Shown here in pieces: positions 1 to 21,891 of a stretch of 21,891 nt of DNA; the stretch's first letter is position 1, and each line of letters starts with the position of its first letter. Made by a program: the position numbers and the translations under genes. The notes beneath the pieces are model-generated. The model made no database searches and had not been told where the DNA came from. It worked only from the letters and a program-made list of their open reading frames with translations. Origin of the DNA: a virus (taxonomy: Duplodnaviria > Heunggongvirae > Uroviricota > Caudoviricetes); IMG/VR virus record IMGVR_UViG_2778261300_000004, positions 1-21,891 of that record. One strand, written 5' to 3'.

Positions 1-516
1 ATGAAATTTAAAAAATGTCTTCTGCCTGTGGCAATGTTAGCGTCATTCACTCTGGCAGGATGCCAGTCAAATGCTGACGATCATGCCGCCGATGTTTATC
101 AAACCGATCAACTGAATACCAAACAAGAAACTAAAACCGTTAATATTATTTCCATTCTTCCCGCAAAAGTTGCCGTAGACAACTCCCAAAATAAACGGAA
201 CGCACAAGCCTTCGGCGCGCTTATTGGCGCAGTCGCTGGCGGTGTTATCGGCCACAACGTCGGTTCTGGCAGCAATTCCGGAACGACGGCAGGGGCAGTT
301 GGCGGCGGAGCTGTAGGCGCGGCAGCGGGTTCTATGGTGAATGATAAAACCTTAGTGGAAGGTGTTTCTTTAACCTATAAGGAAGGCACCAAAGTGTATA
401 CCTCTACCCAGGTGGGTAAAGAGTGCCAGTTTACGACAGGTTTAGCCGTTGTTATTACCACGACGTATAACGAAACGCGTATTCAGCCAAATACCAAATG
501 TCCTGAAAAGAGCTAA
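1..516 (+). CDS. Outer-membrane lipoprotein with glycine-zipper segment (YcfJ / Rick_17kDa_Anti-like); probably host flank or cargo
   Basis: ATG at window start; signal peptide ending in lipobox LAGC; Gly/Ala-rich segment GALIGAVAGGVIGHNVGSG resembling the YcfJ-type glycine zipper as recalled. Confidence 0.55.
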   Translation: MKFKKCLLPVAMLASFTLAGCQSNADDHAADVYQTDQLNTKQETKTVNIISILPAKVAVDNSQNKRNAQAFGALIGAVAGGVIGHNVGSGSNSGTTAGAVGGGAVGAAAGSMVNDKTLVEGVSLTYKEGTKVYTSTQVGKECQFTTGLAVVITTTYNETRIQPNTKCPEKS

Positions 517-531
517 TAATCAGGAGGAGTC

Positions 532-1071
532 ATGAAGAAAGTTTTTCTTTGCGCCATCTTAGCCTCCTTAAGCTATCCGGCTATCGCCTCATCATTGCAG
601 GATCAACTCTCTGCTGTCGCAGAAGCGGAACAGCAAGGTAAAAATGAAGAGCAAAGGCAGCATGACGAATGGGTCGCGGAGCGCAACAGGGAAATCCAGC
701 AAGAGAAGCAACGTCGCGCAAATGCCCAGGCCGCCGCTAACAAAAGAGCGGCAACGGCAGCGGCAAATAAGAAAGCTCGTCAGGATAAACTGGACGCCGA
801 AGCCACTGCGGACAAAAAACGCGATCAAAGTTATGAAGATGAGCTACGCAGCTTAGAGATTCAGAAACAAAAACTGGCGCTGGCGAAAGAAGAAGCCCGC
901 GTTAAGCGAGAAAACGAATTTATCGATCAGGAACTGAAGCACAAAGCTGCGCAAACCGATGTGGTGCAATCTGAAGCTGACGCCAACAGAAATATGACTG
1001 AAGGCGGTCGCGATCTGATGAAAAGCGTGGGCAAAGCAGAAGAGAACAAATCGGACAGCTGGTTTAATTAA
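532..1071 (+). CDS. Secreted, highly charged coiled-coil protein of unknown function
   Basis: AGGAGG 5-10 nt upstream of ATG 532; N-terminal signal peptide; K/E/R/A/Q-rich remainder; followed by a strong terminator. Confidence 0.55.
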   Translation: MKKVFLCAILASLSYPAIASSLQDQLSAVAEAEQQGKNEEQRQHDEWVAERNREIQQEKQRRANAQAAANKRAATAAANKKARQDKLDAEATADKKRDQSYEDELRSLEIQKQKLALAKEEARVKRENEFIDQELKHKAAQTDVVQSEADANRNMTEGGRDLMKSVGKAEENKSDSWFN

Positions 1072-3245: not shown

Positions 3246-4382
3246 TTAATTATGTTTGTTTGCTGCAATGTTAATAAAATACCTTTCAAAAAAATGGAAG
3301 GTTAAACATGACACAACACAAAGAAATATAAAGACAATAGTTAGCTGAAGATAAAAAATACCACCACTCATAGGAAGGTTGTTTTCTTTCATTACTTTAA
3401 AAGCGACATAAAAAATCACCCCCTGAAGTAGATATATACTGTAACTAGCCTCTCCAAGCCTTATAAATCCCTTGGTTCTAAATAGACCAAATAGATCGGC
3501 ACCTGAGCATACAGCAAAGAAACCTATCGCTGAAACAAATATGAGCTTTGTGCTAAGAGTGCCTGGTGAAAGTATAATAATGCTTAATATTGATGCAACC
3601 AACAAAATTTCTGATTGCAATTTTGTTATTTTCACCAGCAATGTTATTTCTTTCACCAACATACCAAAACAAAAAGCCGCCCATAAGTTTGCTTTGGCAT
3701 CTGGGAAAAATGATGGTACAAAATACATGGATAAAAAAGTAATGGCTGAGATGAACTCTAACGATTTTTCTCTAAATAAGTAAAGCAAAGGAAGAATGAA
3801 ATAAAACCCCCACTCCCACACAAGAGTCCATGTAACTCCAGCAGTTACATATCTTGAGTTAATCATCCCGTTTATATCTGGTCTTATATTCGTAAACCCA
3901 CAGTCAAACCAATACAAATAGTTCTGATACTTCTGAATAAAATCAGATGGAAGCCCTGTATAATACAATATTACAACTATAGCCAAAAGTGATGACAACC
4001 AAGCCATTGGCAAGATTCTAAACAGCCTTCCCTTATACATTGAAATCCAGTCAACACGCTCTGAGTCTCTTATTTTCCCCCAAAATAAAAAAGCAGTAAT
4101 CATGAAGAAAAAATAAACCCCAATATTTCCTATATAGTACATAAATGATGATGTGAACCACCATTTATTATTTATGGTAAAATTCAAAAAAAAGTCCATA
4201 TGGTCAAAGACGACCATTGATGCAAGTATATATCTTACACCTGTTAATTGCATATTTCTATGCAGCTTCACGCCTTTATCCATAAATGAGAATAAAGGCA
4301 TGGAAAATATTAAAGAAACAAATAATATAGAACCAAAAACCCATATTGCTAAATATATGCTATTCTGCATGATTGACACCAT
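3246..4382 (-). CDS. Integral-membrane acyltransferase family 3 (O-antigen acetyltransferase-like) moron
   Basis: 378 aa, roughly ten hydrophobic segments, strongly AT-rich relative to neighbours; acyltransferase-3-like N-terminal motif (LTGVRYILASMVVFDHM) and FFFMITAF; own terminator; immediately after the tailspike. Confidence 0.65.
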   Translation of the reverse strand: MVSIMQNSIYLAIWVFGSILFVSLIFSMPLFSFMDKGVKLHRNMQLTGVRYILASMVVFDHMDFFLNFTINNKWWFTSSFMYYIGNIGVYFFFMITAFLFWGKIRDSERVDWISMYKGRLFRILPMAWLSSLLAIVVILYYTGLPSDFIQKYQNYLYWFDCGFTNIRPDINGMINSRYVTAGVTWTLVWEWGFYFILPLLYLFREKSLEFISAITFLSMYFVPSFFPDAKANLWAAFCFGMLVKEITLLVKITKLQSEILLVASILSIIILSPGTLSTKLIFVSAIGFFAVCSGADLFGLFRTKGFIRLGEASYSIYLLQGVIFYVAFKVMKENNLPMSGGIFYLQLTIVFIFLCVVSCLTFHFFERYFINIAANKHN

Positions 4383-4453
4383 TTTAAATATTTATATTTA
4401 AATTATCACACATAAATAAATATAACAATAGTGCCAATCACATCAGTTATTGA

Positions 4454-6925
4454 TTAAACCACACTTAACCAACTTGAACCATTCGCAACAACTGGGCCAA
4501 CTCCACCAGCAAGACTGGTATTTGTGTTGTAACAGTGACTCCCCCTAACCGCAGTTGCGTTACTAACATCCGCAAAAATACCAAACCCTTTAATCGCCCA
4601 CGTGACCCCTGAAACCGGTGTAGATGGTATAGCTGAGTTTCCATACTGCATATGCCCACTTATATTTACAGAGCCAGTTGTTGTGGTGAAAACTTCACCC
4701 GTTTTACTTGATACGACATTACCGCCGCAAATAACAGAATAGCCACTAACCAGACTTGTTAATTTGTCTGGCCTGTTGAAAAATCCACCGATAAACTCAA
4801 ACGAGGGAGTGGTATTGTCGTAGTTAACACCAGTACTTATAAAGCTATAACCATTAGATTGGGTTAATTTGTCGAAGATAACTTTCTCTACTTTACCACT
4901 AGACTTTCTGATCACCGCCTGCCCGGAAACCAAATCAATATTCCCCGAAACAATAACGGTGTTTATCTGCCCACGGGTGATACGAACTCCGGCTGCGTCC
5001 GACACACTGGTAGCAAGTAAGGTTTTATCGAAATTAACATTAAGATTGTCTATGCGACTATTGTCGGCACCAGCACCATCACCCCCTACCTCCAGAAAAT
5101 ATGCGACATCACGAGGGCACCGACATTCCAGATTGTAGACACGAACTGCTGATGAGCCAGCCGTCCCAGTGGTTACCGACACTACAGGCACAACTGCTGC
5201 CGAGTAGTTAGCCGAGATAACGCCGATTACAGCGTTATCGACGGTAACAGTACCAGTCCCTACTGTTTTAAATTCAATGGTTCTGTAGCCAGCGCCAGCA
5301 ATTCCACCGACATTGTCGATATTCAGTGTTTTCACGTTGGTTTGTGACAGATTTGGTCCATCTGTCCACACCCTGATTACACTATGCTGGTAGCTACCAT
5401 AAACACCATCTATGCTCAGGTGGCGAACAGGTGTTGTGCTGTTTCCTGCAACCTTTACTGCACATAAAGAATTAATGCCATAAATGCCCTTAACGTCGAT
5501 GTGATTAAACGTTCCGCGCAACCCTAAATCGTAAGCAAGGTAATCCCCTCCGGTCATTGCAAACATGTCATCGCCAGTCGTACCGTACAGATCCCTTACG
5601 TAGGCATAATCAATAGGTGGCTGTAGATGAAGTCCATCAGAGTTGTTATTAAAACGAAGCCCTTGAGCATCAAGATATTGAACGTTGGCTACAAGGTAAG
5701 AATATTTTCTTGCACCTTTAATTTCCAGTCCACCACCTAATTTAACCCGCACTGCTGATGCAATGCAGATGCAATGCATTTCCATCCCATTCGAGGTGCC
5801 TCCCGTAGAATAGTTGTAGTCAACGGTCCCACCTCCCCATATCCCAATATAATCTGAGCGGTTACCAAGATCGGATGTGTTAGAAGCAAAACCTCCCGAG
5901 ACTGTCCTGTTTGACAGAACATATTCCCATTTCTCACTTACAAATACCGGCCTCAGATTGCCAGACGCGCCTGAAACCGTAACGCCGGATTTAATTTCGA
6001 TGTCGGTGTTATTAGGGACTATGATTGGCCCATTGACAAAAATAGTACCCTGATCTGCAAACACAATTCTCGTAATCGTGGACTTACCAGACAGATCGTT
6101 CAGCATGTTCTGCAAATTTGTAGAGTTAACGGTGGCACTATTTGTTGGTAAGACACCATAATCACTTACATAATAAATCCTATCTAATTTGTCTTTTACT
6201 GTCTGTAAAATCGCAAATGGTCCCTTATTTTTATATCCTGTTATTTTTGCACCATTGTTTGCTAACTCAATTAGAACATCTGAAGCCGAGCCTGATTCTG
6301 GCAAAACGGCAATTGGTCTCCCTACATCATTAAAAGCAAGAATTTTATTCGCTCTCTCTTCATTTGATGGTATCTGATCAACATAACTTTCAGGAACTCT
6401 TAGCGTCCTTTTGAAAAGGTTGTCGACATAATAGGCGACACTGTCAACATAATTTTTTGTTGCCGCATCCTGTGGATCTCGTGGGTCTCTAAGATTACGG
6501 ATATAGTTGTTTAGCGCGTCGTACCAGTTCGCGATGCTTGATGGCTTACGCAGCGCAAGGCTAAACAAACTGCGAACCTGCTGAATCAACATCGTTAGCT
6601 TATCAAACGCATCCTCATGCACCTCAGCAAAAAACTTACCCTGATTGCGCAGATCAGTTTCCTGTGTAACCGGTAGCTCTCGTGATATAGAAATCCGATA
6701 ACCGTTAGCCAACGCCTTCGACAGAATTACATTACCGCCGTTGTACCCTCCCGCACCAGTGACTGCGTAATCAGTATCAAGAGCCAGCACAGCGATATTT
6801 TCATCAAGGTCAACCACCTGTACTACCAGATCAGATTCCTGGAAAATCCTAAAGGTATAAGGGAATGAAGTCGTAACACCGTTACCTGTGTATTCGTTGT
6901 GGTCAACTTCTGTTGATACCGTCAT
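4454..6925 (-). CDS. Tailspike / receptor-binding protein, likely beta-helix glycanase
   Basis: ATG 6925 with GGAG RBS (track start is an upstream TTG); N-terminal ~150 aa (MTVSTEVDHNEYTGNGVTTSFPYTF...QETDLRNQGKFFAEVHEDAFDKL) matches the conserved tail fibre/tailspike N-domain as recalled; G/S/T/N/V-rich remainder. Confidence 0.7.
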   Translation of the reverse strand: MTVSTEVDHNEYTGNGVTTSFPYTFRIFQESDLVVQVVDLDENIAVLALDTDYAVTGAGGYNGGNVILSKALANGYRISISRELPVTQETDLRNQGKFFAEVHEDAFDKLTMLIQQVRSLFSLALRKPSSIANWYDALNNYIRNLRDPRDPQDAATKNYVDSVAYYVDNLFKRTLRVPESYVDQIPSNEERANKILAFNDVGRPIAVLPESGSASDVLIELANNGAKITGYKNKGPFAILQTVKDKLDRIYYVSDYGVLPTNSATVNSTNLQNMLNDLSGKSTITRIVFADQGTIFVNGPIIVPNNTDIEIKSGVTVSGASGNLRPVFVSEKWEYVLSNRTVSGGFASNTSDLGNRSDYIGIWGGGTVDYNYSTGGTSNGMEMHCICIASAVRVKLGGGLEIKGARKYSYLVANVQYLDAQGLRFNNNSDGLHLQPPIDYAYVRDLYGTTGDDMFAMTGGDYLAYDLGLRGTFNHIDVKGIYGINSLCAVKVAGNSTTPVRHLSIDGVYGSYQHSVIRVWTDGPNLSQTNVKTLNIDNVGGIAGAGYRTIEFKTVGTGTVTVDNAVIGVISANYSAAVVPVVSVTTGTAGSSAVRVYNLECRCPRDVAYFLEVGGDGAGADNSRIDNLNVNFDKTLLATSVSDAAGVRITRGQINTVIVSGNIDLVSGQAVIRKSSGKVEKVIFDKLTQSNGYSFISTGVNYDNTTPSFEFIGGFFNRPDKLTSLVSGYSVICGGNVVSSKTGEVFTTTTGSVNISGHMQYGNSAIPSTPVSGVTWAIKGFGIFADVSNATAVRGSHCYNTNTSLAGGVGPVVANGSSWLSVV

Positions 6926-7028
6926 GTTCAATCTCCGGATAGTCGCAGCACCCGTTGCGCCGCATACCCGGTTATTTTATTACCTTAAAAACCACATATG
7001 GATAGATAACCCATAAATACGAACAGAT

Positions 7029-7045
7029 ATCACCTTTCAGGTGAT
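7029..7045. promoter_or_regulatory. 17-bp inverted repeat A-TCACC-N5-GGTGA-T, a variant of the operator-like motif
   Basis: atcacctttcaggtgat in the divergent tailspike / SOS-gene intergenic region; same architecture as the TTACC-N5-GGTAA sites. Confidence 0.35.
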
Positions 7046-7081: not shown

Positions 7082-7101
7082 TACTGTATATTCATACAGT
7101 T
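7082..7101. promoter_or_regulatory. LexA (SOS) box
   Basis: TACTGTATATTCATACAGTT matches the CTGT-N8-ACAG consensus with both arms intact (about 17/20 to TACTGTATATATATACAGTA); 20 bp upstream of ATG 7121. Confidence 0.65.
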
Positions 7102-7120: not shown

Positions 7121-7378
7121 ATGCAGCAGTATCACTATCCACTGGAAAACGGATTTACCGAAAAGATTCACACGCCGGGAGGCGTCAGATCACTGGTGGA
7201 GGGATCGCACTTGATGAAATTACTCCGGGATCTCGATAAAGATGGATTTAATGTCGATGGTCCACTTGCCGAACTGACTGCACTGATTAACTACGTCACC
7301 AGCTCACAGATGTCTATGCAGGATCTGCAAACACATCTCGACTATTGTGCCGAACAATTACGAAAACAAACCCGGTAA
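7121..7378 (+). CDS. Small SOS-regulated protein of unknown function (candidate antirepressor or SOS-induced accessory factor)
   Basis: ATG 7121 with GGAGAAG RBS (track start is an upstream TTG at 7103); 85 aa, acidic and soluble; LexA box at its promoter; a hairpin follows. Confidence 0.5.
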   Translation: MQQYHYPLENGFTEKIHTPGGVRSLVEGSHLMKLLRDLDKDGFNVDGPLAELTALINYVTSSQMSMQDLQTHLDYCAEQLRKQTR

Positions 7379-7385
7379 ATTTAAA

Positions 7386-7401
7386 GGCCGCAAGAGCGGC
7401 C
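7386..7401. terminator. Hairpin between convergent genes (terminator-like)
   Basis: ggccgc / aaga / gcggcc; T-rich tract on the minus strand side, weaker on +. Confidence 0.4.
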
Positions 7402-7402
7402 T

Positions 7403-9835: not shown

Positions 9836-10090
9836 TTAATGCCGCTTCACCATGTCAGAAAACTCAAGGCGGAGATCAGCATCTTTAGGCATCGGAATAC
9901 CTTTCGCGTCATCAGTACCTTTACGAGCCGCCGCGCCAGCAAGAATTGTCTGCGCAGCGGTTTCAGGAGACACGGAAACATCCGGATTAAACCAGTTTTT
10001 TTCTGCCAAAATACCACCTGGCTTATCCATCAGTATCCCGGCAACGGCAGCAGATGGAGCGTTGGCACTGATCTGCTGTAGTGCTGACAT
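9836..10090 (-). CDS. Short ORF, probably the C-terminal remnant of a truncated upstream virion gene
   Basis: 84 aa from ATG 10090; stop 12 nt before the 750-aa gene start; nothing phage-structural lies upstream of it, only the tRNA island. Confidence 0.3.
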   Translation of the reverse strand: MSALQQISANAPSAAVAGILMDKPGGILAEKNWFNPDVSVSPETAAQTILAGAAARKGTDDAKGIPMPKDADLRLEFSDMVKRH

Positions 10091-10343
10091 ATACACCTGC
10101 CCACCACCAGTGCTCTGCCTGATGGTAGCGGTCTGGATACGTTTAAGGGGCACCCTCCCTTGCTCGGGCAAACGAACCAGGTAGCCGGAATGTGCAAGTC
10201 GAGCGGTTTTATTCCGCGCACGGGGATTCACCATCCCGGCGATTCGGTGTGACACCTCGGAAGAGACGAGGGTGCAACGATGAGAGCATTTATGGAGCCG
10301 CGACAAAGTGTGGTGCCTTAACAGGCTAAGTGCTCTCAGCGTT

Positions 10344-10420
10344 GTGGCATTAGCTCAGTTGGACAGAGCAACCGCCTTCTAAGCGGTTGGTCGCAGGTTC
10401 GAATCCTGCATGCCACGCCA
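10344..10420 (+). tRNA. tRNA-Arg, anticodon UCU (reads AGA/AGG)
   Basis: Cloverleaf folded by hand: 7-bp acceptor stem GTGGCAT/ATGCCAC, D-arm GCTC..GAGC, anticodon stem ACCGC/GCGGT with loop CTTCTAA, T-arm GCAGG TTCGAAT CCTGC, discriminator G and encoded CCA. Confidence 0.9.
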
Positions 10421-10506: not shown

Positions 10507-10583
10507 CAGCAGGACGCCATTGCGATGACTTCATGCTGTAAACCCGTACAGCCACGGAAGGCATAACTCATTGCTTCCAGTTC

Positions 10584-10608
10584 GCCCACTTCAGTGGGCT
10601 TTTTTTTC
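10584..10608 (+). terminator. Rho-independent terminator
   Basis: gcccac / ttca / gtgggc followed by T8. Confidence 0.7.
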
Positions 10609-10620
10609 TAGTGACTACTG

Positions 10621-10637
10621 ATTACCTTATGGGTAAT
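10621..10637. promoter_or_regulatory. Operator-like inverted repeat A-TTACC-N5-GGTAA-T in the promoter region of the AT-rich gene
   Basis: attaccttatgggtaat, perfect arms; overlaps a candidate -10 TAATAT (10634-10639) about 30 bp upstream of ATG 10669. Confidence 0.5.
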
Positions 10638-10668
10638 ATGCTGCAAACAAATAACACAAGGCCGTGAC

Positions 10669-11487
10669 ATGCTTGACTTCATCCGTGACATTTACTCCTC
10701 TTTCCGCCAAGCATCTCTTGAGCGGGTGAAAAGCCCGTTCCTTGGGGCATTTGTTTTTTCCTGGCTTTGCTTTAATTGGCAGATGTTAGCAATTCTATTT
10801 TTTAGTTCTAAGGATATTGAAAAGCGCCTTGCTATTATTAATGGCTCTTTCGGCATCGTCAGCTTTTTAATTGCGCCAATATGCACTACAGCATTGATAG
10901 TTATCCTTTTACCGCAAATTAATAAATTAATTACAATAATACAAGATAAACCTAACTCAGACACAATTGAAATGAGCCTTGCATCTAAAATAAAGATCGC
11001 CGAACTGCAGCAACTATTAGCAGAAAATGAAGCAAGAAAGAAACTTGCTGATAAAAAAGAAGAACGCTTCATTGAAGAGAATATTATTTCAATAAAAAAA
11101 GACCATGAAAAAGCAATAGATAACCTTAAAGACAAAGAAAGTAAAATCTCAAATCTCACGGACACAATAACTGAACTTCAGAGCAAACTGGTTAAAGCTG
11201 AGGCCACTCTCAAAGTTGAACAGGAGTCAAGATCCCAAGTGCAGAATGAATTGATTATTGAAAAAGAGAACAAGCGGAAATTAGAAGACAACATTCTGCA
11301 CCTTAATTTAAGTTTAAAAAAAAACCAATCAGAATTGGCCATTGCAAAAGAAGCCTATGATAATACCTTGATGGCTTATAATGAACTTAACACAACATTA
11401 AAAAAAGCAGAAAGCTCAATAATAAACTTCAACGCTAACTTTCCTTTTTTAACTGACATAAATAACAGCACCCCAAATACATACTAA
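10669..11487 (+). CDS. AT-rich moron: protein with two N-terminal TM helices and a long coiled coil (candidate exclusion, abortive-infection or host-takeover factor)
   Basis: 272 aa; two N-terminal hydrophobic segments then a K/E/L/N-rich heptad-like region; composition much more AT-rich than flanking phage genes; opposite strand to neighbours; own promoter-like and terminator-like signals. Confidence 0.55.
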   Translation: MLDFIRDIYSSFRQASLERVKSPFLGAFVFSWLCFNWQMLAILFFSSKDIEKRLAIINGSFGIVSFLIAPICTTALIVILLPQINKLITIIQDKPNSDTIEMSLASKIKIAELQQLLAENEARKKLADKKEERFIEENIISIKKDHEKAIDNLKDKESKISNLTDTITELQSKLVKAEATLKVEQESRSQVQNELIIEKENKRKLEDNILHLNLSLKKNQSELAIAKEAYDNTLMAYNELNTTLKKAESSIINFNANFPFLTDINNSTPNTY

Positions 11488-13052: not shown

Positions 13053-13645
13053 TGATTGCCATCCTGACGTTCTTTCAGTCTCTTCCTGGCTGCTGCTATG
13101 CGATCAGCAATTGTCACATTCACATTAACATCCATGCGTTCTTTGAACGCGTTGACGTCGACGTGCTTACCAATCAGTTCGAGGTTCTTCACCTTGTCAG
13201 GCCATTTAATTTTTTTGAGGATTGTCTCTATCGAATCCTCGTTCATGTTCATGATGGTCGATGACAGATCAAAGCCGCTAAGCGTAGTGCGCCAGATTTT
13301 CGGCCACTCGCGGATTGGCTTAAGGCTCCCATCGTCGTTGAGGATATCAATCACGTCCATCTGGTCGATCTCCACCAGGCGCATGAGAACGTAATCGGCA
13401 CTGACGCGCATTCGTTTGTTGCGCTCCTCCATCAACTCGGCAATCCGTTTTTGAATGCGTTCATCGCGCATCATGACACTGGCTTTAACTGCCGCTGTAT
13501 TTGGGGAGAATCCTGCGTTAATCGCTGCCTGAGTCTGGTTTTCAGGCGTTTTGATGTATGACTGGCAATAAGCCTCCTGCATTGCTGTTAGTGGCTTAAA
13601 TTGCGTTGATTTGCGTTTATAGGTTTTAGGTTCAGCAGACATCAT
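13049..13645 (-). CDS. terS: Terminase small subunit
   Basis: Most likely start is the ATG-ATG at 13645 (MMSAEPKTYKRK...); the track ORF begins at an upstream TTG (13723); basic helical protein directly before and coupled to terL. Confidence 0.65.
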   Translation of the reverse strand: MMSAEPKTYKRKSTQFKPLTAMQEAYCQSYIKTPENQTQAAINAGFSPNTAAVKASVMMRDERIQKRIAELMEERNKRMRVSADYVLMRLVEIDQMDVIDILNDDGSLKPIREWPKIWRTTLSGFDLSSTIMNMNEDSIETILKKIKWPDKVKNLELIGKHVDVNAFKERMDVNVNVTIADRIAAARKRLKERQDGNQ

Positions 13646-13755
13646 AACCACCGTGGTAATAGTTACCGTTGTGGTAATAGTACCATGCAAAATAAAGCCG
13701 CCATAGTTGGCGGCAGTATTCAAAACCCGTCAAATTCATCATGCATAATCTACTC

Positions 13756-15917: not shown

Positions 15918-16477
15918 TGGATGACTCCTTTACGAAGCTGTTCAGCGATATCTTCGAGAACGCCATCAGAGAATGAGCGGTCAAAATCTCCTTCCGGCAC
16001 ATTAGCCATAAAATCAGTAGAGGTAAGAATCATCCGGGCAATATCCTCGGCGTTCTTCGCAGTATCATCAATAAAACCAGCTTTCCAGGCAGCCAACATT
16101 CTGTTCGCCACAAAGTAAGCCCCTTCCTTGCGTGCTTCAGTCTTCATTTCATCCAAGAAAGCATCGGTCGCAGGAGTGGTTTTTTGTGGTGATATGGCGA
16201 TACGAATTGTTTCAAGAGCTGGATCTGTTTCCACTGTTGGCACCTTGATAAAACCAAGCTGCACGCCATTCATAATGAACGTGCGGCGATCCTCACATAT
16301 CGCCTTCAGTCTCGCATTCTCCGCAGCCAGCACCGAAAACTTCTCGTGTGCCAACTTAACAGCCGCATCAGCCTGCTTAATTGACTCAATCGCTTTCTGC
16401 TGGTCTTCGGCCAGCGCATTAGCACGCTCCAGTTGCACTTCCAGTTGCGTTGCCAAATCGCTGATTCCATGGTGCAC
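15914..16477 (-). CDS. Hypothetical protein with N-terminal coiled coil; true start uncertain
   Basis: Track ORF from GTG 16477; N-terminal region overlaps a second frame that carries a small zinc-ribbon-like ORF. Confidence 0.4.
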   Translation of the reverse strand: MHHGISDLATQLEVQLERANALAEDQQKAIESIKQADAAVKLAHEKFSVLAAENARLKAICEDRRTFIMNGVQLGFIKVPTVETDPALETIRIAISPQKTTPATDAFLDEMKTEARKEGAYFVANRMLAAWKAGFIDDTAKNAEDIARMILTSTDFMANVPEGDFDRSFSDGVLEDIAEQLRKGVIQ

Positions 16478-16596: not shown

Positions 16597-16705
16597 GGTA
16601 AGTACTGTTATTAGTATTGGGATTACGGTTATTTTGTGCTGACACAAAAAAAAGATCAACCAGATTTGGTTTTTTATTACCTTTGAGGTGCGAATAGATA
16701 TGAAA

Positions 16706-16725
16706 AGACCGCCGGATGGCGGTCT
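16706..16725 (-). terminator. Hairpin terminator about 20 nt after the Cro-like gene
   Basis: agaccgcc / ggat / ggcggtct followed on the minus strand by TTTTCATATCT. Confidence 0.4.
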
Positions 16726-16746
16726 ACAGAGGGTTGTGGCTGGATA

Positions 16747-16977
16747 TCATGAGTAGAAGAAGTATGCCAGTTCTGCTTTTGAGCGCAGCCATTGTCTTGT
16801 TTTACAGGCTTTAAAAAGCCCATTCATCAATACCTTACCTGGCATTTTGCGCTTACCTGTTAAGTGAGTCTGGATATAGTGACTCGTCGTTCCGGCTTCC
16901 TGTGCGAAGGCTTCACGCTCATCCGGAGTAAGTGCAAGCCAGTGCTTTTTGAAATCGAAATGTCCGTTATCGCTCAT
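16747..16977 (-). CDS. Cro-like small HTH regulator (YdaS/Cro-type)
   Basis: 76 aa, ATG 16977; HTH-like segment TTSHYIQTHLTGKRKMP; divergent from the repressor gene across an operator-bearing intergenic region. Confidence 0.5.
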   Translation of the reverse strand: MSDNGHFDFKKHWLALTPDEREAFAQEAGTTSHYIQTHLTGKRKMPGKVLMNGLFKACKTRQWLRSKAELAYFFYS

Positions 16978-17012
16978 AGCTATTGCCTGATATTTATTTC
17001 AGATAATAAATA

Positions 17013-17077
17013 TTCACCCATAAGGTAACAAAAATCAAGGATAGTTACCCATGGGGTGCATTTACCTGTTGGGTAAT
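17013..17077. promoter_or_regulatory. Immunity-region operator cluster: three 17-bp sites of the form (A/T)-T(T/C)ACC-N5-GGTAA-(T/C)
   Basis: 17013-17029 ttcacccataaggtaac; 17044-17060 gttacccatggggtgca (weaker right arm); 17061-17077 tttacctgttgggtaat; all between the Cro-like and repressor starts. Confidence 0.5.
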
Positions 17078-17131
17078 ATTGCTTTAAATTGAATCATCTA
17101 CTGATTCATATATGAGGCGATTTTCCAGAAA

Positions 17132-17716
17132 ATGAAAAGTATCCAGGACGTCCGCAGGCAAAATCTCAACGACTTGATCGACCGTGAATTCAATGGTGTT
17201 CAGACGCGGATGGCAGAAAAACTTGGAACTCAGGCAAATCTGGTAAACCGCTGGGCTCTTGGCAAGAAGGTTATCGGCGATCAGGTTGCGCGAAAAATTG
17301 AAGCTGCCGCCAATAAACCCCGTAACTGGCTTGATATCGATCGCTCTCTTTCTCAGGAAGGTTTTCAGCCTGTCGGCCCAAGCGACATTGGTCAGCTGGC
17401 GGCTCACAACCTGGAGCGCTGGATGAGCGAAAGCCGCGACCTTTCAACACAGGGAAAACTTCACCGCGCATCCGGCGTAGCCCAGGTGACAATCAGCCGC
17501 CTGTTAAACAATGAGGTCAGCGTTTCCATTTCCACCCTGGAGAATGTTGCATCCGCATTCGGGCGTCATGGCTATGAATTACTGATTCACCCGCACGACC
17601 CTGCGACCATCAACTATGACCGCTCGCGCTACGCATTGTTACCCGAAACCGAGAAAGCAAAGATCGAAAGTTACATTGAATTTGTCATCAACCAGAACGA
17701 AAAAAACAAACAATAA
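17132..17716 (+). CDS. Prophage repressor candidate with two HTH (XRE-type) domains and no recognisable peptidase/autocleavage domain
   Basis: 194 aa; HTH-like segments around residues 25-45 and 110-130; no S24-like Ser/Lys motif region seen by eye; followed by a strong terminator. Confidence 0.55.
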   Translation: MKSIQDVRRQNLNDLIDREFNGVQTRMAEKLGTQANLVNRWALGKKVIGDQVARKIEAAANKPRNWLDIDRSLSQEGFQPVGPSDIGQLAAHNLERWMSESRDLSTQGKLHRASGVAQVTISRLLNNEVSVSISTLENVASAFGRHGYELLIHPHDPATINYDRSRYALLPETEKAKIESYIEFVINQNEKNKQ

Positions 17717-17736
17717 AATCATATTTTTCAGTAAGT

Positions 17737-17762
17737 AAGCCGCCTTCTGGCGGCTTTTTTTA
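17737..17762 (+). terminator. Rho-independent terminator after the repressor gene
   Basis: aagccgcc / ttct / ggcggctt followed by T7. Confidence 0.7.
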
Positions 17763-17773
17763 TTGTCTATACG

Positions 17774-17790
17774 ATTACCTGACGGGTAAT
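17774..17790. promoter_or_regulatory. Operator site (perfect arms) upstream of the early-operon promoter
   Basis: attacctgacgggtaat. Confidence 0.5.
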
Positions 17791-17808
17791 TTTTTTAACT
17801 CATATCTA

Positions 17809-17836
17809 TTGACATCAAACCAAATACGCATAATCA
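17809..17836 (+). promoter_or_regulatory. Candidate sigma70 promoter of the + strand early operon
   Basis: Perfect -35 TTGACA (17809-17814); -10 candidate TAATCA 16 bp downstream; bracketed by two operator sites. Confidence 0.4.
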
Positions 17837-17852
17837 TTACCTCAACGGTAAC
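17836..17852. promoter_or_regulatory. Operator site overlapping the -10 / start region
   Basis: attacctcaacggtaac. Confidence 0.5.
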
Positions 17853-17870
17853 AGACCGAGGTAACAAATT

Positions 17871-18022
17871 ATGCAGTGGAAAATCATCAACGGTTGGTAC
17901 TGCGTTACTGCATGCGGATTCATGAGCTGGAAGTTCCGCACCTTACAGGAAGGCATTAAGTGGGCTTTCGTCAGCAAAGAAGCTCGCGATGTGGCCAACG
18001 ATAACGAGATATGGGAGGGCTG
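17871..18022 (+). CDS. 49-aa Trp/Cys-containing small protein, first gene of the operator-controlled operon (below the ORF-track cutoff)
   Basis: ATG 17871 with GAGG 8 nt upstream; MQWKIINGWYCVTACGFMSWKFRTLQEGIKWAFVSKEARDVANDNEIWEG. Confidence 0.35.
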
Positions 18023-20946: not shown

Positions 20947-21891
20947 CTATGCAGATCCACCCTGGGTATTAGATAATGGCTTCCGGAAGTTGTAACGACC
21001 AGGAACCAGATATTCACTTCCACCAGCGCACATCTGCAACCCGACCAATATATCCTGTGCCTGTTTAGGCAGGTAAATAACGTGCGCCCGGCTTCCCTTC
21101 ATGCGGTCTGAAGGAATTGTCCATGTCCATTTTTTAAAATCTATTTCGTCCCACGTTGCATTGGTGAATTCGCCTTTACGAACCATAGTGATAAGCACCA
21201 GCTTTAAAGCCATTTTCATAGTGCCCATAGCACCAATGGCATCCAGCGTACGGAAGAACAGGCCAATTTCTTCTGGTGTCAGTGTTCGCTCTCGTGGTTT
21301 AAATATGGCGATAGACGAAGGTTTAATGTCAGCTGCAGGATTAAACAAACCATGACCACGGTCATTGGCGTGACGGTATACGCTGCTGATGATCTCCCTG
21401 GCCTGCACTGCTGTTGCCCGGCCACCGCGTTCGACAATCCGGTCACACAAATCACGAACCATCGATGTGGTAATTTCAACCATCATTTTGTTGCCAAGAA
21501 CCGGAAGTATGTCACGGTCGATCACCGCCTGCTTCATTGCGCGGGTACTTTCAGCCAGGATGACGTGTTTCATATAACTGTCGGTATGTACCGCAAACGT
21601 CTCGGCACCACGAATCTTTTTGATACCGTCACGTTTAGCCACAGCCGGCGACTGGCCTGCTTTAAGCAGCTTCTTTGCAGCAATCAGTTCTTCCCGCGCT
21701 TCTGCCAGGCTGATACCGTCACGCCCATACTGCCCGATTACCAGTGTTTCGCGGCGACCGTTGATACGGTAGTCATAGCGAAACGAGACCGTGCCTGACG
21801 TAAGCACAGCTACATACAGCCCGTCACGATCGGAGACCTTGTACAGTTTGTCCTGCGGCTTGAGGTTTTTTAATTTTGTATCGGTAAGCAC
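20947..21891 (-). CDS. int: Tyrosine integrase, P4-type; N-terminus runs off the window and the ORF ends before the catalytic C-terminal segment
   Basis: Arm-binding-like N-terminal region (LTDTKLKNLKPQDKLYKVSDRDGLY...) and core segment (LVLITMVRKGEF...HVIYLPKQAQDIL...SEYLVPGRY) present; ORF stops after ...FRKPLSNTQGGSA with no H-x-x-R / catalytic-Tyr region in any frame downstream. Confidence 0.7.
   Translation of the reverse strand: MLTDTKLKNLKPQDKLYKVSDRDGLYVAVLTSGTVSFRYDYRINGRRETLVIGQYGRDGISLAEAREELIAAKKLLKAGQSPAVAKRDGIKKIRGAETFAVHTDSYMKHVILAESTRAMKQAVIDRDILPVLGNKMMVEITTSMVRDLCDRIVERGGRATAVQAREIISSVYRHANDRGHGLFNPAADIKPSSIAIFKPRERTLTPEEIGLFFRTLDAIGAMGTMKMALKLVLITMVRKGEFTNATWDEIDFKKWTWTIPSDRMKGSRAHVIYLPKQAQDILVGLQMCAGGSEYLVPGRYNFRKPLSNTQGGSA

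What the first reader, a model, noticed from the sequence alone, without database searches (positions are those of the whole stretch)
16747..17716. Immunity region built on a tandem-HTH repressor with no autocleavage domain
The repressor candidate carries two XRE-type HTH units and nothing resembling a LexA/CI-like S24 peptidase domain. It is divergent from a small Cro-like gene across three operator sites and followed by its own terminator. SOS induction of such a switch requires an accessory factor, which links this region to the LexA-box gene at 7121-7378.
Basis: inference. Interest (0 to 1): 0.45.

Follow-up and report, generated by a model that had tools for sequence, protein, structure and literature searches.

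The report
Known phage repressor–antirepressor SOS switch
This is the lysogeny switch of a phiV10/epsilon15-type prophage: a repressor that cannot cut itself is switched off by a small, LexA-controlled antirepressor encoded 10 kb away. The same system was worked out and crystallised in Salmonella phage SPC32H, so it is correct but ordinary.

Summary
ORF 17132-17716 encodes a 194-aa protein with two XRE/HTH_3-like units and no S24 peptidase signal. It lies divergent from a 76-aa Cro-like gene (16747-16977) across three conserved TTACC-N5-GGTAA palindromes, and a hairpin plus T-run terminator follows at 17737-17756.

The interpretation also holds, but the system is already known. The protein is 100% identical to the phiV10 and vB_EcoP_ZX5 repressor. 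It aligns end to end with SPC32H Rep (PDB 5D50_A, E 4e-42).

The gene at 7121-7378 is 86% identical to SPC32H Ant (PDB 5D50_E, E 2e-46). Its LexA box (7082-7101) sits at the position of the SPC32H box. That box carries one of the only two differences between the SPC32H and SPC32N genome records.

Two refinements:
- In the solved homologue the second HTH-like unit is a dimerisation domain, not a second DNA-reading head.
- Rep-type palindromes also flank a promoter downstream of rep (17775-17851). Others lie upstream of ant, of the small terminase gene and of an inserted gene. The epsilon15 GenBank record already annotates equivalent sites.

The prophage itself is decayed by four deletions. Novelty: already known. 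Interest is low.

The parts
16706..16725 (-). Hairpin plus T-run terminator after the Cro-like gene
   Evidence: A terminator is annotated at the equivalent place in phiV10.
16747..16977 (-). 76-aa Cro-like gene, first gene of the leftward early operon (phiV10 p41, epsilon15 gp39, SPC32H_042)
   Evidence: ORF. PHROG 35 'transcriptional repressor', E 5.6e-13. 75% identical to SPC32H_042. Five-helix model with weak similarity to YdaS/434-type HTH domains.
17003..17031 (-). Promoter-like site for the Cro-like operon (TTGTTA-17-TATTAT), overlapped by operator A
   Evidence: Consensus scan, 9 of 12 matches. Not mapped experimentally.
17014..17028 (.). Operator A, TCACCCATAAGGTAA
   Evidence: position and half-sites conserved in 5 phages.
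17045..17059 (.). Operator B, TTACCCATGGGGTGC
   Evidence: Two mismatches here, but a perfect site at the aligned position in SPC32H and epsilon15.
17062..17076 (.). Operator C, TTACCTGTTGGGTAA (perfect). It probably overlaps the rep promoter: TTTACC -35 and the conserved TTAAAT 17 bp downstream.
   Evidence: The promoter assignment is inference from conserved sequence.
17132..17716 (+). rep: 194-aa non-cleavable repressor (N-terminal DNA-binding domain, middle HTH-like dimerisation domain, C-terminal tetramerisation and Ant-binding domain)
   Evidence: Domain names from PMC9986798. The identical protein shut off lytic transcription in vB_EcoP_ZX5 (PMC9782041).
17737..17756 (+). rep terminator
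   Evidence: annotated in phiV10.
17775..17789 (.). Downstream operator 1, TTACCTGACGGGTAA (perfect)
17809..17837 (+). Promoter-like site TTGACA-17-AATCAT for the rightward operon (50-aa and 104-aa ORFs, RecE-like, RecT, AlpA-like)
   Evidence: 10 of 12 matches. TTGACAT is conserved in SPC32H.
17837..17851 (.). Downstream operator 2, TTACCTCAACGGTAA (perfect), overlapping the -10 of that promoter
   Evidence: The 62-bp spacing to operator 1 is the same in SPC32H.
7030..7044 (.). Rep-type palindrome TCACCTTTCAGGTGA between the tail-fibre gene and ant, starting 52 nt before the LexA box
   Evidence: present at this spacing in 8 of 8 relatives. Annotated as a repressor binding site in epsilon15.
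7082..7101 (+). LexA box TACTGTATATTCATACAGTT
   Evidence: Aligned with the SPC32H box that is mutated in SPC32N.
7121..7378 (+). ant: 85-aa antirepressor (phiV10 p24, epsilon15 gp19, SPC32H Ant)
7385..7402 (-). GC-rich hairpin just after ant. The scan calls it a terminator on the minus strand, so it may be bidirectional.
   Evidence: A terminator is annotated at the same place in epsilon15.
13645..13677 (.). Two Rep-type palindromes (13645-13659 with 1 mismatch, 13663-13677 perfect) just upstream of the small terminase gene
   Evidence: An equivalent site is annotated as 'repressor' in epsilon15.
10622..10636 (.). Perfect Rep-type palindrome upstream of the inserted 272-aa ORF

Best explanation
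This is the lysis-lysogeny switch of a Uetakevirus (phiV10/epsilon15/SPC32H-type) prophage. It works by antirepression, not by repressor self-cleavage.

Repressed state. Rep (17132-17716) binds TTACC-N5-GGTAA palindromes through its N-terminal HTH domain.
- Three sites lie between rep and the Cro-like gene. They overlap the leftward early promoter and, probably, rep's own promoter.
- Two sites flank the rightward promoter downstream of the rep terminator.
- Further sites lie in front of other transcription units.

Host LexA sits on the box at 7082-7101 and keeps ant (7121-7378) silent.

Induction. DNA damage removes LexA and Ant is made. In the homologue, Ant binds Rep's C-terminal domain as a tetramer and splits the DNA-binding Rep tetramer into dimers that let go of the operators. 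The early operons are then derepressed.

What is shown here:
- homology of both proteins to the solved Rep-Ant complex;
- the orthologous LexA box;
- conserved operators;
- absence of an S24 domain.

What is inferred from SPC32H:
- no RecA-dependent cleavage of this Rep;
- Ant-Rep binding;
- the tetramer-to-dimer mechanism.
For: - Rep aligns with 5D50_A over residues 1-190, E 4e-42.
- Ant aligns with 5D50_E, E 2e-46, 86% identity.
- The GenBank record of SPC32H names these genes rep and ant, in the same gene order.
- The window's Rep is 100% identical to that of phiV10 and vB_EcoP_ZX5. Overexpressing that protein in ZX5 cut endolysin and holin transcription by more than 99.9% and abolished free phage (PMC9782041).
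- There is no S24 domain at E<=10 and no Ala-Gly or Cys-Gly site.
- The LexA box lies at about -39 to -20 from the ant ATG and is conserved in 7 of 8 diverse relatives.
- One of the only two SPC32H/SPC32N differences hits that box.
- The recognition-helix stretch NLVNRW is invariant, and the operator half-sites are conserved across phages with 43-100% Rep identity.
- Rep and Ant co-occur in 35 of 36 phage records.
- Secondary literature describes the mechanism: PMC7380047, PMC9638917, PMC9986798 and bioRxiv 10.1101/2025.11.27.690993.
Against: - This Rep is only 41% identical to the SPC32H protein: 33% in the middle domain and 43% in the C-terminal part. Ant binding to this Rep is therefore inferred, not shown.
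- The only experiment on the E. coli type (ZX5) tested a different, Bro-N-domain antirepressor, not the small Ant.
- The ant promoter could not be located by the consensus scan.
- The prophage in the window is decayed, so the switch may no longer lead to phage production.
- The primary papers (Kim & Ryu 2013; Kim et al. 2016) are not in the held library. Details of the SPC32H experiments rest on my recollection of their abstracts and on citing papers.
Confidence: 0.9

Rival explanations
1. The 194-aa protein is a conventional SOS-cleavable repressor with a cryptic or non-canonical cleavage module, and the LexA-box gene is irrelevant to induction.
For: Most lambdoid repressors of enterobacterial phages are S24 autoproteases.
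Against: - No S24 match at E<=10, and no Ala-Gly or Cys-Gly dipeptide.
- All 194 residues are accounted for by the alignment to 5D50_A, whose domains are DNA-binding, dimerisation and tetramerisation/Ant-binding.
- Reviews state that SPC32H-type induction goes through an antirepressor.
Confidence: 0.03
2. The protein is an antitoxin of a toxin-antitoxin pair (HigA/VapI type), as one phage record (BP9) annotates it, rather than an immunity repressor.
For: BP9 annotates it as 'plasmid maintenance system antidote protein VapI'. There is a weak NCBIfam HigA match, E 0.0012.
Against: - The HigA score is 18.7 bits against a cut-off of 47.7.
- The neighbours are a Cro-like gene and the recombination operon, not a toxin gene.
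- The protein sits between operator sets in the canonical immunity position.
- The identical protein represses lytic genes in ZX5.
Confidence: 0.02
3. The switch is an inert relic. The prophage is decayed, so Rep, Ant and the LexA box persist without any present function.
For: Four deletions relative to phiv142-3 remove most virion genes, the replication genes and the C-terminal catalytic part of the integrase.
Against: - The rep, ant and Cro-like ORFs are intact.
- Rep is 100% identical to that of plaque-forming phages.
- Ant is 95-98% identical to that of E. coli relatives.
- The LexA box and all operator sites are intact.

This rival concerns the present-day consequence, not the mechanism. 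It is compatible with the main explanation.
Confidence: 0.25
4. In E. coli Uetakeviruses the working antirepressor is the larger Bro-N-domain protein (phiV10 p23, ZX5 ORF4), and the small LexA-controlled protein is accessory.
For: - ZX5 ORF4 overexpression lowered prophage titre 1000-fold and repressor transcription by 75%.
- Its C-terminal 74 residues are 42% identical to the small Ant.
Against: - That gene is absent from the window: only about 190 bp separate ant from the next gene.
- It is also absent from SPC32H and epsilon15, where the small Ant suffices.
- In phiv142-3 it is preceded by a Rep-type palindrome. I did not scan its upstream region for a LexA box, but as read it shows no CTGT-N8-ACAG motif. 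A Rep-controlled gene would act after, not before, the SOS signal.
Confidence: 0.05

Closest known systems
Rep/Ant antirepression switch of Salmonella phage SPC32H (Kim & Ryu, J Virol 2013; Kim et al., PNAS 2016; PDB 5D4Z, 5D50)
   Same: - Same genus (Uetakevirus) and same gene order.
- Rep is homologous end to end (E 4e-42) and Ant is 86% identical.
- The LexA box is at the same place.
- The three-site operator layout between rep and the Cro-like gene is the same, and the spacing of the two downstream sites (62 bp) matches.
   Different: - This Rep is only 41% identical and is the E. coli (phiV10) allele.
- The third downstream operator of SPC32H is lost through a 60-nt gap.
- The host prophage here is decayed.
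- No experiment exists on this Rep with the small Ant.
Escherichia phages phiV10 (DQ126339) and vB_EcoP_ZX5 (MW722083; PMC9782041)
   Same: - The Rep protein is identical.
- The immunity region is 97-98% identical at the DNA level.
- phiV10 p40 is already annotated as 'putative transcriptional repressor, two helix-turn-helix motifs' with its terminator.
- The ZX5 repressor was verified by overexpression.
   Different: - Those are complete phages.
- They also carry a Bro-N/Ant-domain antirepressor that is missing here.
- The small ant is annotated only as 'hypothetical protein' in them.
LexA-controlled antirepressors of other temperate phages: Tum of coliphage 186 and the antirepressors of the Gifsy prophages (Lemire et al. 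2011)
   Same: Same logic: a non-cleavable repressor, and a small antirepressor gene under a LexA box, often far from the immunity region (review PMC7380047).
   Different: - No sequence relationship was detected. Ant falls in PHROG 450 ('unknown function') and has no Pfam or NCBIfam family.
- From my recollection of the Kim & Ryu 2013 abstract, SPC32H Ant was described as structurally distinct from the antirepressors of siphoviruses and myoviruses.
Lambda CI / LexA-type S24 autocleaving repressors
   Same: - Position between two divergent early operons.
- A triple operator shared with a Cro-like gene.
- Probable autoregulation.
   Different: There is no S24 peptidase domain and no cleavage site. 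The SOS signal enters through LexA and Ant, not through RecA-stimulated self-cleavage.

Membership tests
SPC32H-type Rep/Ant switch (Uetakevirus) | Repressor homologous over its full length to SPC32H Rep (DNA-binding, dimerisation, tetramerisation/Ant-binding domains) | tested here: met
   phmmer against the PDB: 5D50_A, E 4e-42, query 1-190 aligned to chain 2-197. 41% global identity. 71 invariant columns across 5 phages.
SPC32H-type Rep/Ant switch (Uetakevirus) | Small (about 85 aa) antirepressor homologous to SPC32H Ant | tested here: met
   5D50_E, E 2e-46. 86% identity.
SPC32H-type Rep/Ant switch (Uetakevirus) | LexA box at the ant promoter | tested here: met
   TACTGTATATTCATACAGTT at 7082-7101. 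It aligns with the SPC32H box, which is altered in SPC32N. LexA binding itself was not tested.
SPC32H-type Rep/Ant switch (Uetakevirus) | Gene order: ant divergent from the tail-spike/fibre gene and remote from rep; rep between a Cro-like gene and the recombination operon | tested here: met
SPC32H-type Rep/Ant switch (Uetakevirus) | Conserved palindromic operators (TTACC-N5-GGTAA) on both sides of rep | tested here: met
SPC32H-type Rep/Ant switch (Uetakevirus) | Rep is not cleaved during SOS; Ant binds Rep and releases it from DNA | not testable with these tools
   Needs a western blot after mitomycin C, a pull-down and a gel shift. Inferred from the homologue only.
LexA/lambda CI-type autocleaving repressors (Peptidase S24) | C-terminal S24 peptidase domain with a Ser-Lys dyad | tested here: not met
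   No Peptidase_S24 hit at E<=10 for the whole protein or its halves.
LexA/lambda CI-type autocleaving repressors (Peptidase S24) | Ala-Gly or Cys-Gly cleavage site in the linker | tested here: not met
   Neither dipeptide occurs in the 194 residues.
HigA/VapI antitoxins | Score above the family cut-off and an adjacent toxin gene | tested here: not met
   TIGR02607 scores 18.7 bits against a cut-off of 47.7. The neighbours are the Cro-like gene and phage early genes.
186 Tum / Gifsy-type LexA-controlled antirepressors | Sequence homology of the antirepressor to Tum or the Gifsy antirepressors | not tested
   No reference sequences were compared directly. Ant has no Pfam or NCBIfam family and falls in PHROG 450. 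Only the regulatory logic is shared.

The most novel reading that the evidence does not exclude
The Rep-type palindrome that starts 52 nt before the LexA box in 8 of 8 relatives may put ant under dual control by LexA and Rep. The first Ant made after LexA cleavage would then relieve Rep repression of its own gene, giving a positive-feedback latch. In this decayed prophage, the intact LexA-Ant-Rep relay could then survive as a host-retained SOS module. It would give immunity, induce incoming or co-resident Uetakeviruses in trans, and drive the Rep-gated lysis cassette and the inserted 272-aa gene. Alternatively, the site may simply control the divergent tail-fibre promoter.
Probability: 0.15. 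Interest if true: 0.35.

Novelty: already known. Interest (0 to 1): 0.1.

Why it matters
This is a useful check on that style of reasoning.

Biologically it adds nothing new. The system is described genetically and structurally in SPC32H. The identical repressor is annotated in phiV10 and was tested in vB_EcoP_ZX5. The dispersed operators are already annotated in the epsilon15 record.

One small practical point follows. The small ant gene is still labelled 'hypothetical protein' in most E. coli Uetakevirus records, and repressor annotations vary (one record, BP9, even names it a VapI antidote). Annotation could be corrected by transfer from SPC32H.

Tried and rejected
- **Cryptic peptidase domain.** Pfam at E<=10 on the whole protein and both halves gave only HTH families. 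Rejected.
- **Antitoxin reading, from the BP9 annotation.** Sub-threshold HigA score and no toxin neighbour. Rejected.
- **Primary SPC32H papers.** Four look-ups by DOI and PMC id all failed. The epsilon15 genome paper is also not held. I used citing papers and GenBank annotations instead.
- **Cro-like protein.**
  - Pfam gave only one sub-threshold match (RepC, E 0.19) and NCBIfam none.
  - The PDB sequence search found nothing even at E<=10.
  - The fold search gave only weak (E about 1) HTH matches.
  - 'Cro-like' therefore rests on position, PHROG 35 and a suggestive fold.
- **ant promoter.** The consensus scan found no promoter on the + strand upstream of ant. Hand inspection gave no convincing conserved -10. 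Left unmapped.
- **Genome-collection scan with Ant.** It returned only 3 loci (Citrobacter x2, Ca. Erwinia dacicola) because single-sequence patterns reach only close relatives. They were used only for the LexA-box comparison.
- **Dispersed palindromes as a new finding.** The epsilon15 record already annotates equivalent sites as repressor binding sites. Rejected as novel.
- **Inserted 272-aa gene as a defence gene.** No PADLOC or Pfam match.

Full report
**What the window is.** The region 16600-17900 is 96.5-98.7% identical to the immunity region of 16 E. coli podophage records. These include phiV10, vB_EcoP_ZX5, phiv142-3 and TL-2011b. It is about 77% identical to that of Enterobacter phage Tyrion. 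All are Uetakevirus, the epsilon15/phiV10 group. The window as a whole is a phiV10-like prophage segment running from the lysis cassette to a truncated integrase.

**Checking the observation.**
- ORF 17132-17716 (+) encodes 194 aa.
- Pfam finds HTH_3 in two stretches. The central unit (aa 106-147) is the stronger, at E 1e-5 when the C-terminal fragment is scanned alone. The N-terminal unit (aa 24-67) is weaker, at E 0.011, with a YdaS-type HTH match at E 3e-4.
- Nothing resembling Peptidase_S24 appears even at E<=10.
- The protein has no Ala-Gly or Cys-Gly dipeptide.
- The divergent 76-aa ORF 16747-16977 (-) belongs to PHROG 35, 'transcriptional repressor', at E 5.6e-13. It is 75% identical to SPC32H_042.
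- Its single-sequence model (pLDDT 81.6) is a five-helix bundle. The best PDB matches are weak, but they are YdaS, 434-repressor and C-protein HTH domains.
- The 154-bp gap holds three 15-bp palindromes of the form TTACC-N5-GGTAA, at 17014-17028, 17045-17059 and 17062-17076.
- Perfect copies are far more frequent in the window than chance allows: 6 against 0.03 expected.
- All three sites keep their positions and half-sites in an alignment of five phages whose repressors are 43-100% identical.
- The terminator is at 17737-17756. phiV10 annotates it too.
- The LexA box TACTGTATATTCATACAGTT lies at 7082-7101, with 17 of 20 matches to the consensus and both cores intact. It ends 19 nt upstream of the ATG at 7121, and a GGAG ribosome-binding site sits between them.

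Only the terminator and a second operator set lie outside the stated coordinates.

**What it is.**
- The 194-aa protein aligns over residues 1-190 with chain A of PDB 5D50, 'Repressor' (E 4e-42). Its C-terminal 102 residues align with 5D4Z.
- The 85-aa product of 7121-7378 aligns with chain E of the same entry, 'Anti-repressor protein' (E 2e-46; 86% identity).
- These entries come from Salmonella phage SPC32H. Its GenBank record names the genes rep and ant and shows the same gene order. There ant is divergent from the tail-spike gene, and rep lies between a Cro-like gene and the recombination operon.
- The ant upstream regions align, and the LexA boxes coincide.
- The deposited genomes of SPC32H and its sibling SPC32N differ at exactly two nucleotides. 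One of them changes ACAG to AAAG in that LexA box.
- This fits my recollection of Kim & Ryu (J Virol 2013). They reported that this single change makes Ant constitutive and drives SPC32N into the lytic cycle, that Rep is not cleaved during SOS, and that Ant inactivates it. That paper and the structural paper (Kim et al., PNAS 2016) are not in the held library.
- Citing papers confirm the outline:
  - LexA-controlled antirepressors inhibit the repressor by protein-protein contact (PMC7380047).
  - Rep binds DNA as a tetramer, and tetrameric Ant binds two Rep dimers and breaks the tetramer (PMC9638917).
  - Rep has an N-terminal DNA-binding domain, a middle dimerisation domain and a C-terminal tetramerisation/Ant-binding domain (PMC9986798).

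**Direct evidence on this allele.** The window's Rep is 100% identical to the repressor of phiV10 and of vB_EcoP_ZX5. In ZX5, overexpressing this protein reduced endolysin and holin transcription by more than 99.9% and abolished free phage (PMC9782041). The antirepressor tested in that paper is a different, Bro-N-domain protein. Its C-terminal 74 residues are 42% identical to the small Ant. That gene is missing from the window. The small ant is still annotated 'hypothetical protein' in the E. coli records.

**Comparative support.**
- Ant homologues occur in 35 phage records and full-length Rep homologues in 36. All 35 Ant records also hold Rep.
- The LexA box sits at the same distance from the ant start in 7 of 8 diverse relatives: E. 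coli, Salmonella, Enterobacter x2, Citrobacter x2 and Ca. Erwinia. Klebsiella phage BUCT711 has ATGT in place of CTGT.
- Rep diverges much more than Ant does (41% against 86% identity to SPC32H).
- The N-terminal stretch NLVNRW, the presumed recognition helix, and a set of C-terminal residues (Y..D...Y..LP..EK.KI) are invariant. This fits the conserved operator half-sites and a conserved Ant-binding surface. That last step is inference.

First, 'tandem HTH' is true of the sequence. In the solved homologue, however, the region covering the second unit is the dimerisation domain. DNA is read by the N-terminal domain.

Second, the regulatory region is larger than stated.
- Two perfect palindromes at 17775-17789 and 17837-17851 flank a strong promoter-like site (TTGACA-17-AATCAT). 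This promoter faces the rightward operon: a 50-aa and a 104-aa ORF, RecE-like, RecT and AlpA-like genes. Rep is therefore flanked by operators on both sides, as lambda CI is.
- The same palindrome also occurs between the tail-fibre gene and ant (7030-7044), starting 52 nt before the LexA box in 8 of 8 relatives.
- It occurs twice just upstream of the small terminase gene (13645-13677) and once upstream of an inserted gene (10622-10636).
- In the complete phage phiv142-3, 14 of 15 sites with at most one mismatch are intergenic, although only 10.5% of the genome is intergenic. In SPC32H all 11 perfect sites are intergenic.
- This is not new. The epsilon15 GenBank record already annotates the equivalent positions as 'protein_bind: repressor', and it annotates its repressor as an HHpred match to 5D50_A.

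**How it most likely works.** In the lysogen, Rep tetramers occupy the palindromes.
- Operator A overlaps the promoter-like site of the Cro-like/early operon.
- Operator C overlaps a conserved TTTACC...TTAAAT pair. I take this to be the rep promoter, which would give negative autoregulation. This is inference.
- The downstream pair brackets the rightward promoter.

LexA holds ant off. SOS removes LexA, Ant accumulates and binds Rep's C-terminal domain, Rep leaves the DNA and the early operons fire. The steps after LexA removal are transferred from SPC32H and were not tested for this allele.

**State of the prophage.** Relative to phiv142-3 the window carries four deletions with 4-5 bp junction overlaps:
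- 9845-9848 (2.4 kb);
- 10126-10130 (11.2 kb, removing portal, capsid and most tail genes);
- 16462-16465 (2.3 kb, removing the replication genes);
- 20965-20969 (1.1 kb, removing the C-terminal catalytic part of the integrase).

No complete E. coli genome in the collection holds 80% or more of the window in one place. The switch genes and all their sites are intact, but induction could not yield phage.

**Verdict.** The feature is an already-known system, the SPC32H-type Rep/Ant switch, in its phiV10 allele. Interest is low.

Noticed in passing
window 9845-9848, 10126-10130, 16462-16465, 20965-20969: Four deletion junctions with 4-5 bp overlaps relative to phage phiv142-3. They remove 2.4 kb, 11.2 kb (portal, capsid, tail genes), 2.3 kb (replication genes) and 1.1 kb (methylase plus the C-terminal catalytic part of the integrase). 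The prophage is defective although its switch, lysis cassette, terminase and recombination genes remain.
   Followed up: partly
window 10580-11487: A 272-aa ORF (10669-11487, +) lies in a segment absent from phiv142-3. It has no match in the phiV10 stretch compared either, but that stretch did not include the terminase end of the genome. It has no Pfam or PADLOC match and falls in PHROG 13369, function unknown. It follows a terminator (10580-10608) and a perfect Rep-type palindrome (10622-10636) whose flanks resemble operator C. It may be a Rep-gated accessory gene.
   Followed up: partly
window 13645-13677: Two Rep-type palindromes sit between a minus-strand terminator-like hairpin (about 13700-13730) and the start of the small terminase gene. 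This suggests direct repressor control or a roadblock at the late operon. The equivalent site is annotated in epsilon15.
   Followed up: partly
window 7030-7044: A Rep-type palindrome starts 52 nt before the ant LexA box and is conserved at that spacing in 8 of 8 relatives. It could control the divergent tail-fibre promoter, ant, or both.
   Followed up: partly
L002 (phiv142-3) 5424-6080; absent from the window between 7378 and 7569: E. coli Uetakeviruses carry a second antirepressor-like gene: a Bro-N domain fused to a C-terminal domain 42% identical to the small Ant. In phiv142-3 it is preceded by a Rep-type palindrome at 5138-5152. It is the 'ORF4 anti-repressor' tested in vB_EcoP_ZX5 and is missing here.
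   Followed up: partly
window 1-1071: Two ORFs (171 aa with Gly-zipper/TraT-like matches; 179 aa, DUF5384) lie beyond the lysis cassette. They have no match in the three phage genomes compared by BLAST (phiv142-3, SPC32H, and the 25-kb phiV10 stretch), but E. coli chromosomes cover them. They are probably host flank or cargo.
   Followed up: no
window 10344-10420: tRNA-Arg (anticodon TCT), as in phiv142-3 and SPC32H.
   Followed up: no
window 3246-6931: The acyltransferase gene (3246-4382) and most of the 825-aa tail-fibre gene (4454-6931) have no nucleotide match in phiV10, phiv142-3 or SPC32H. Only the N-terminal end of the fibre gene is shared. This is the usual serotype-specific swap.
   Followed up: no
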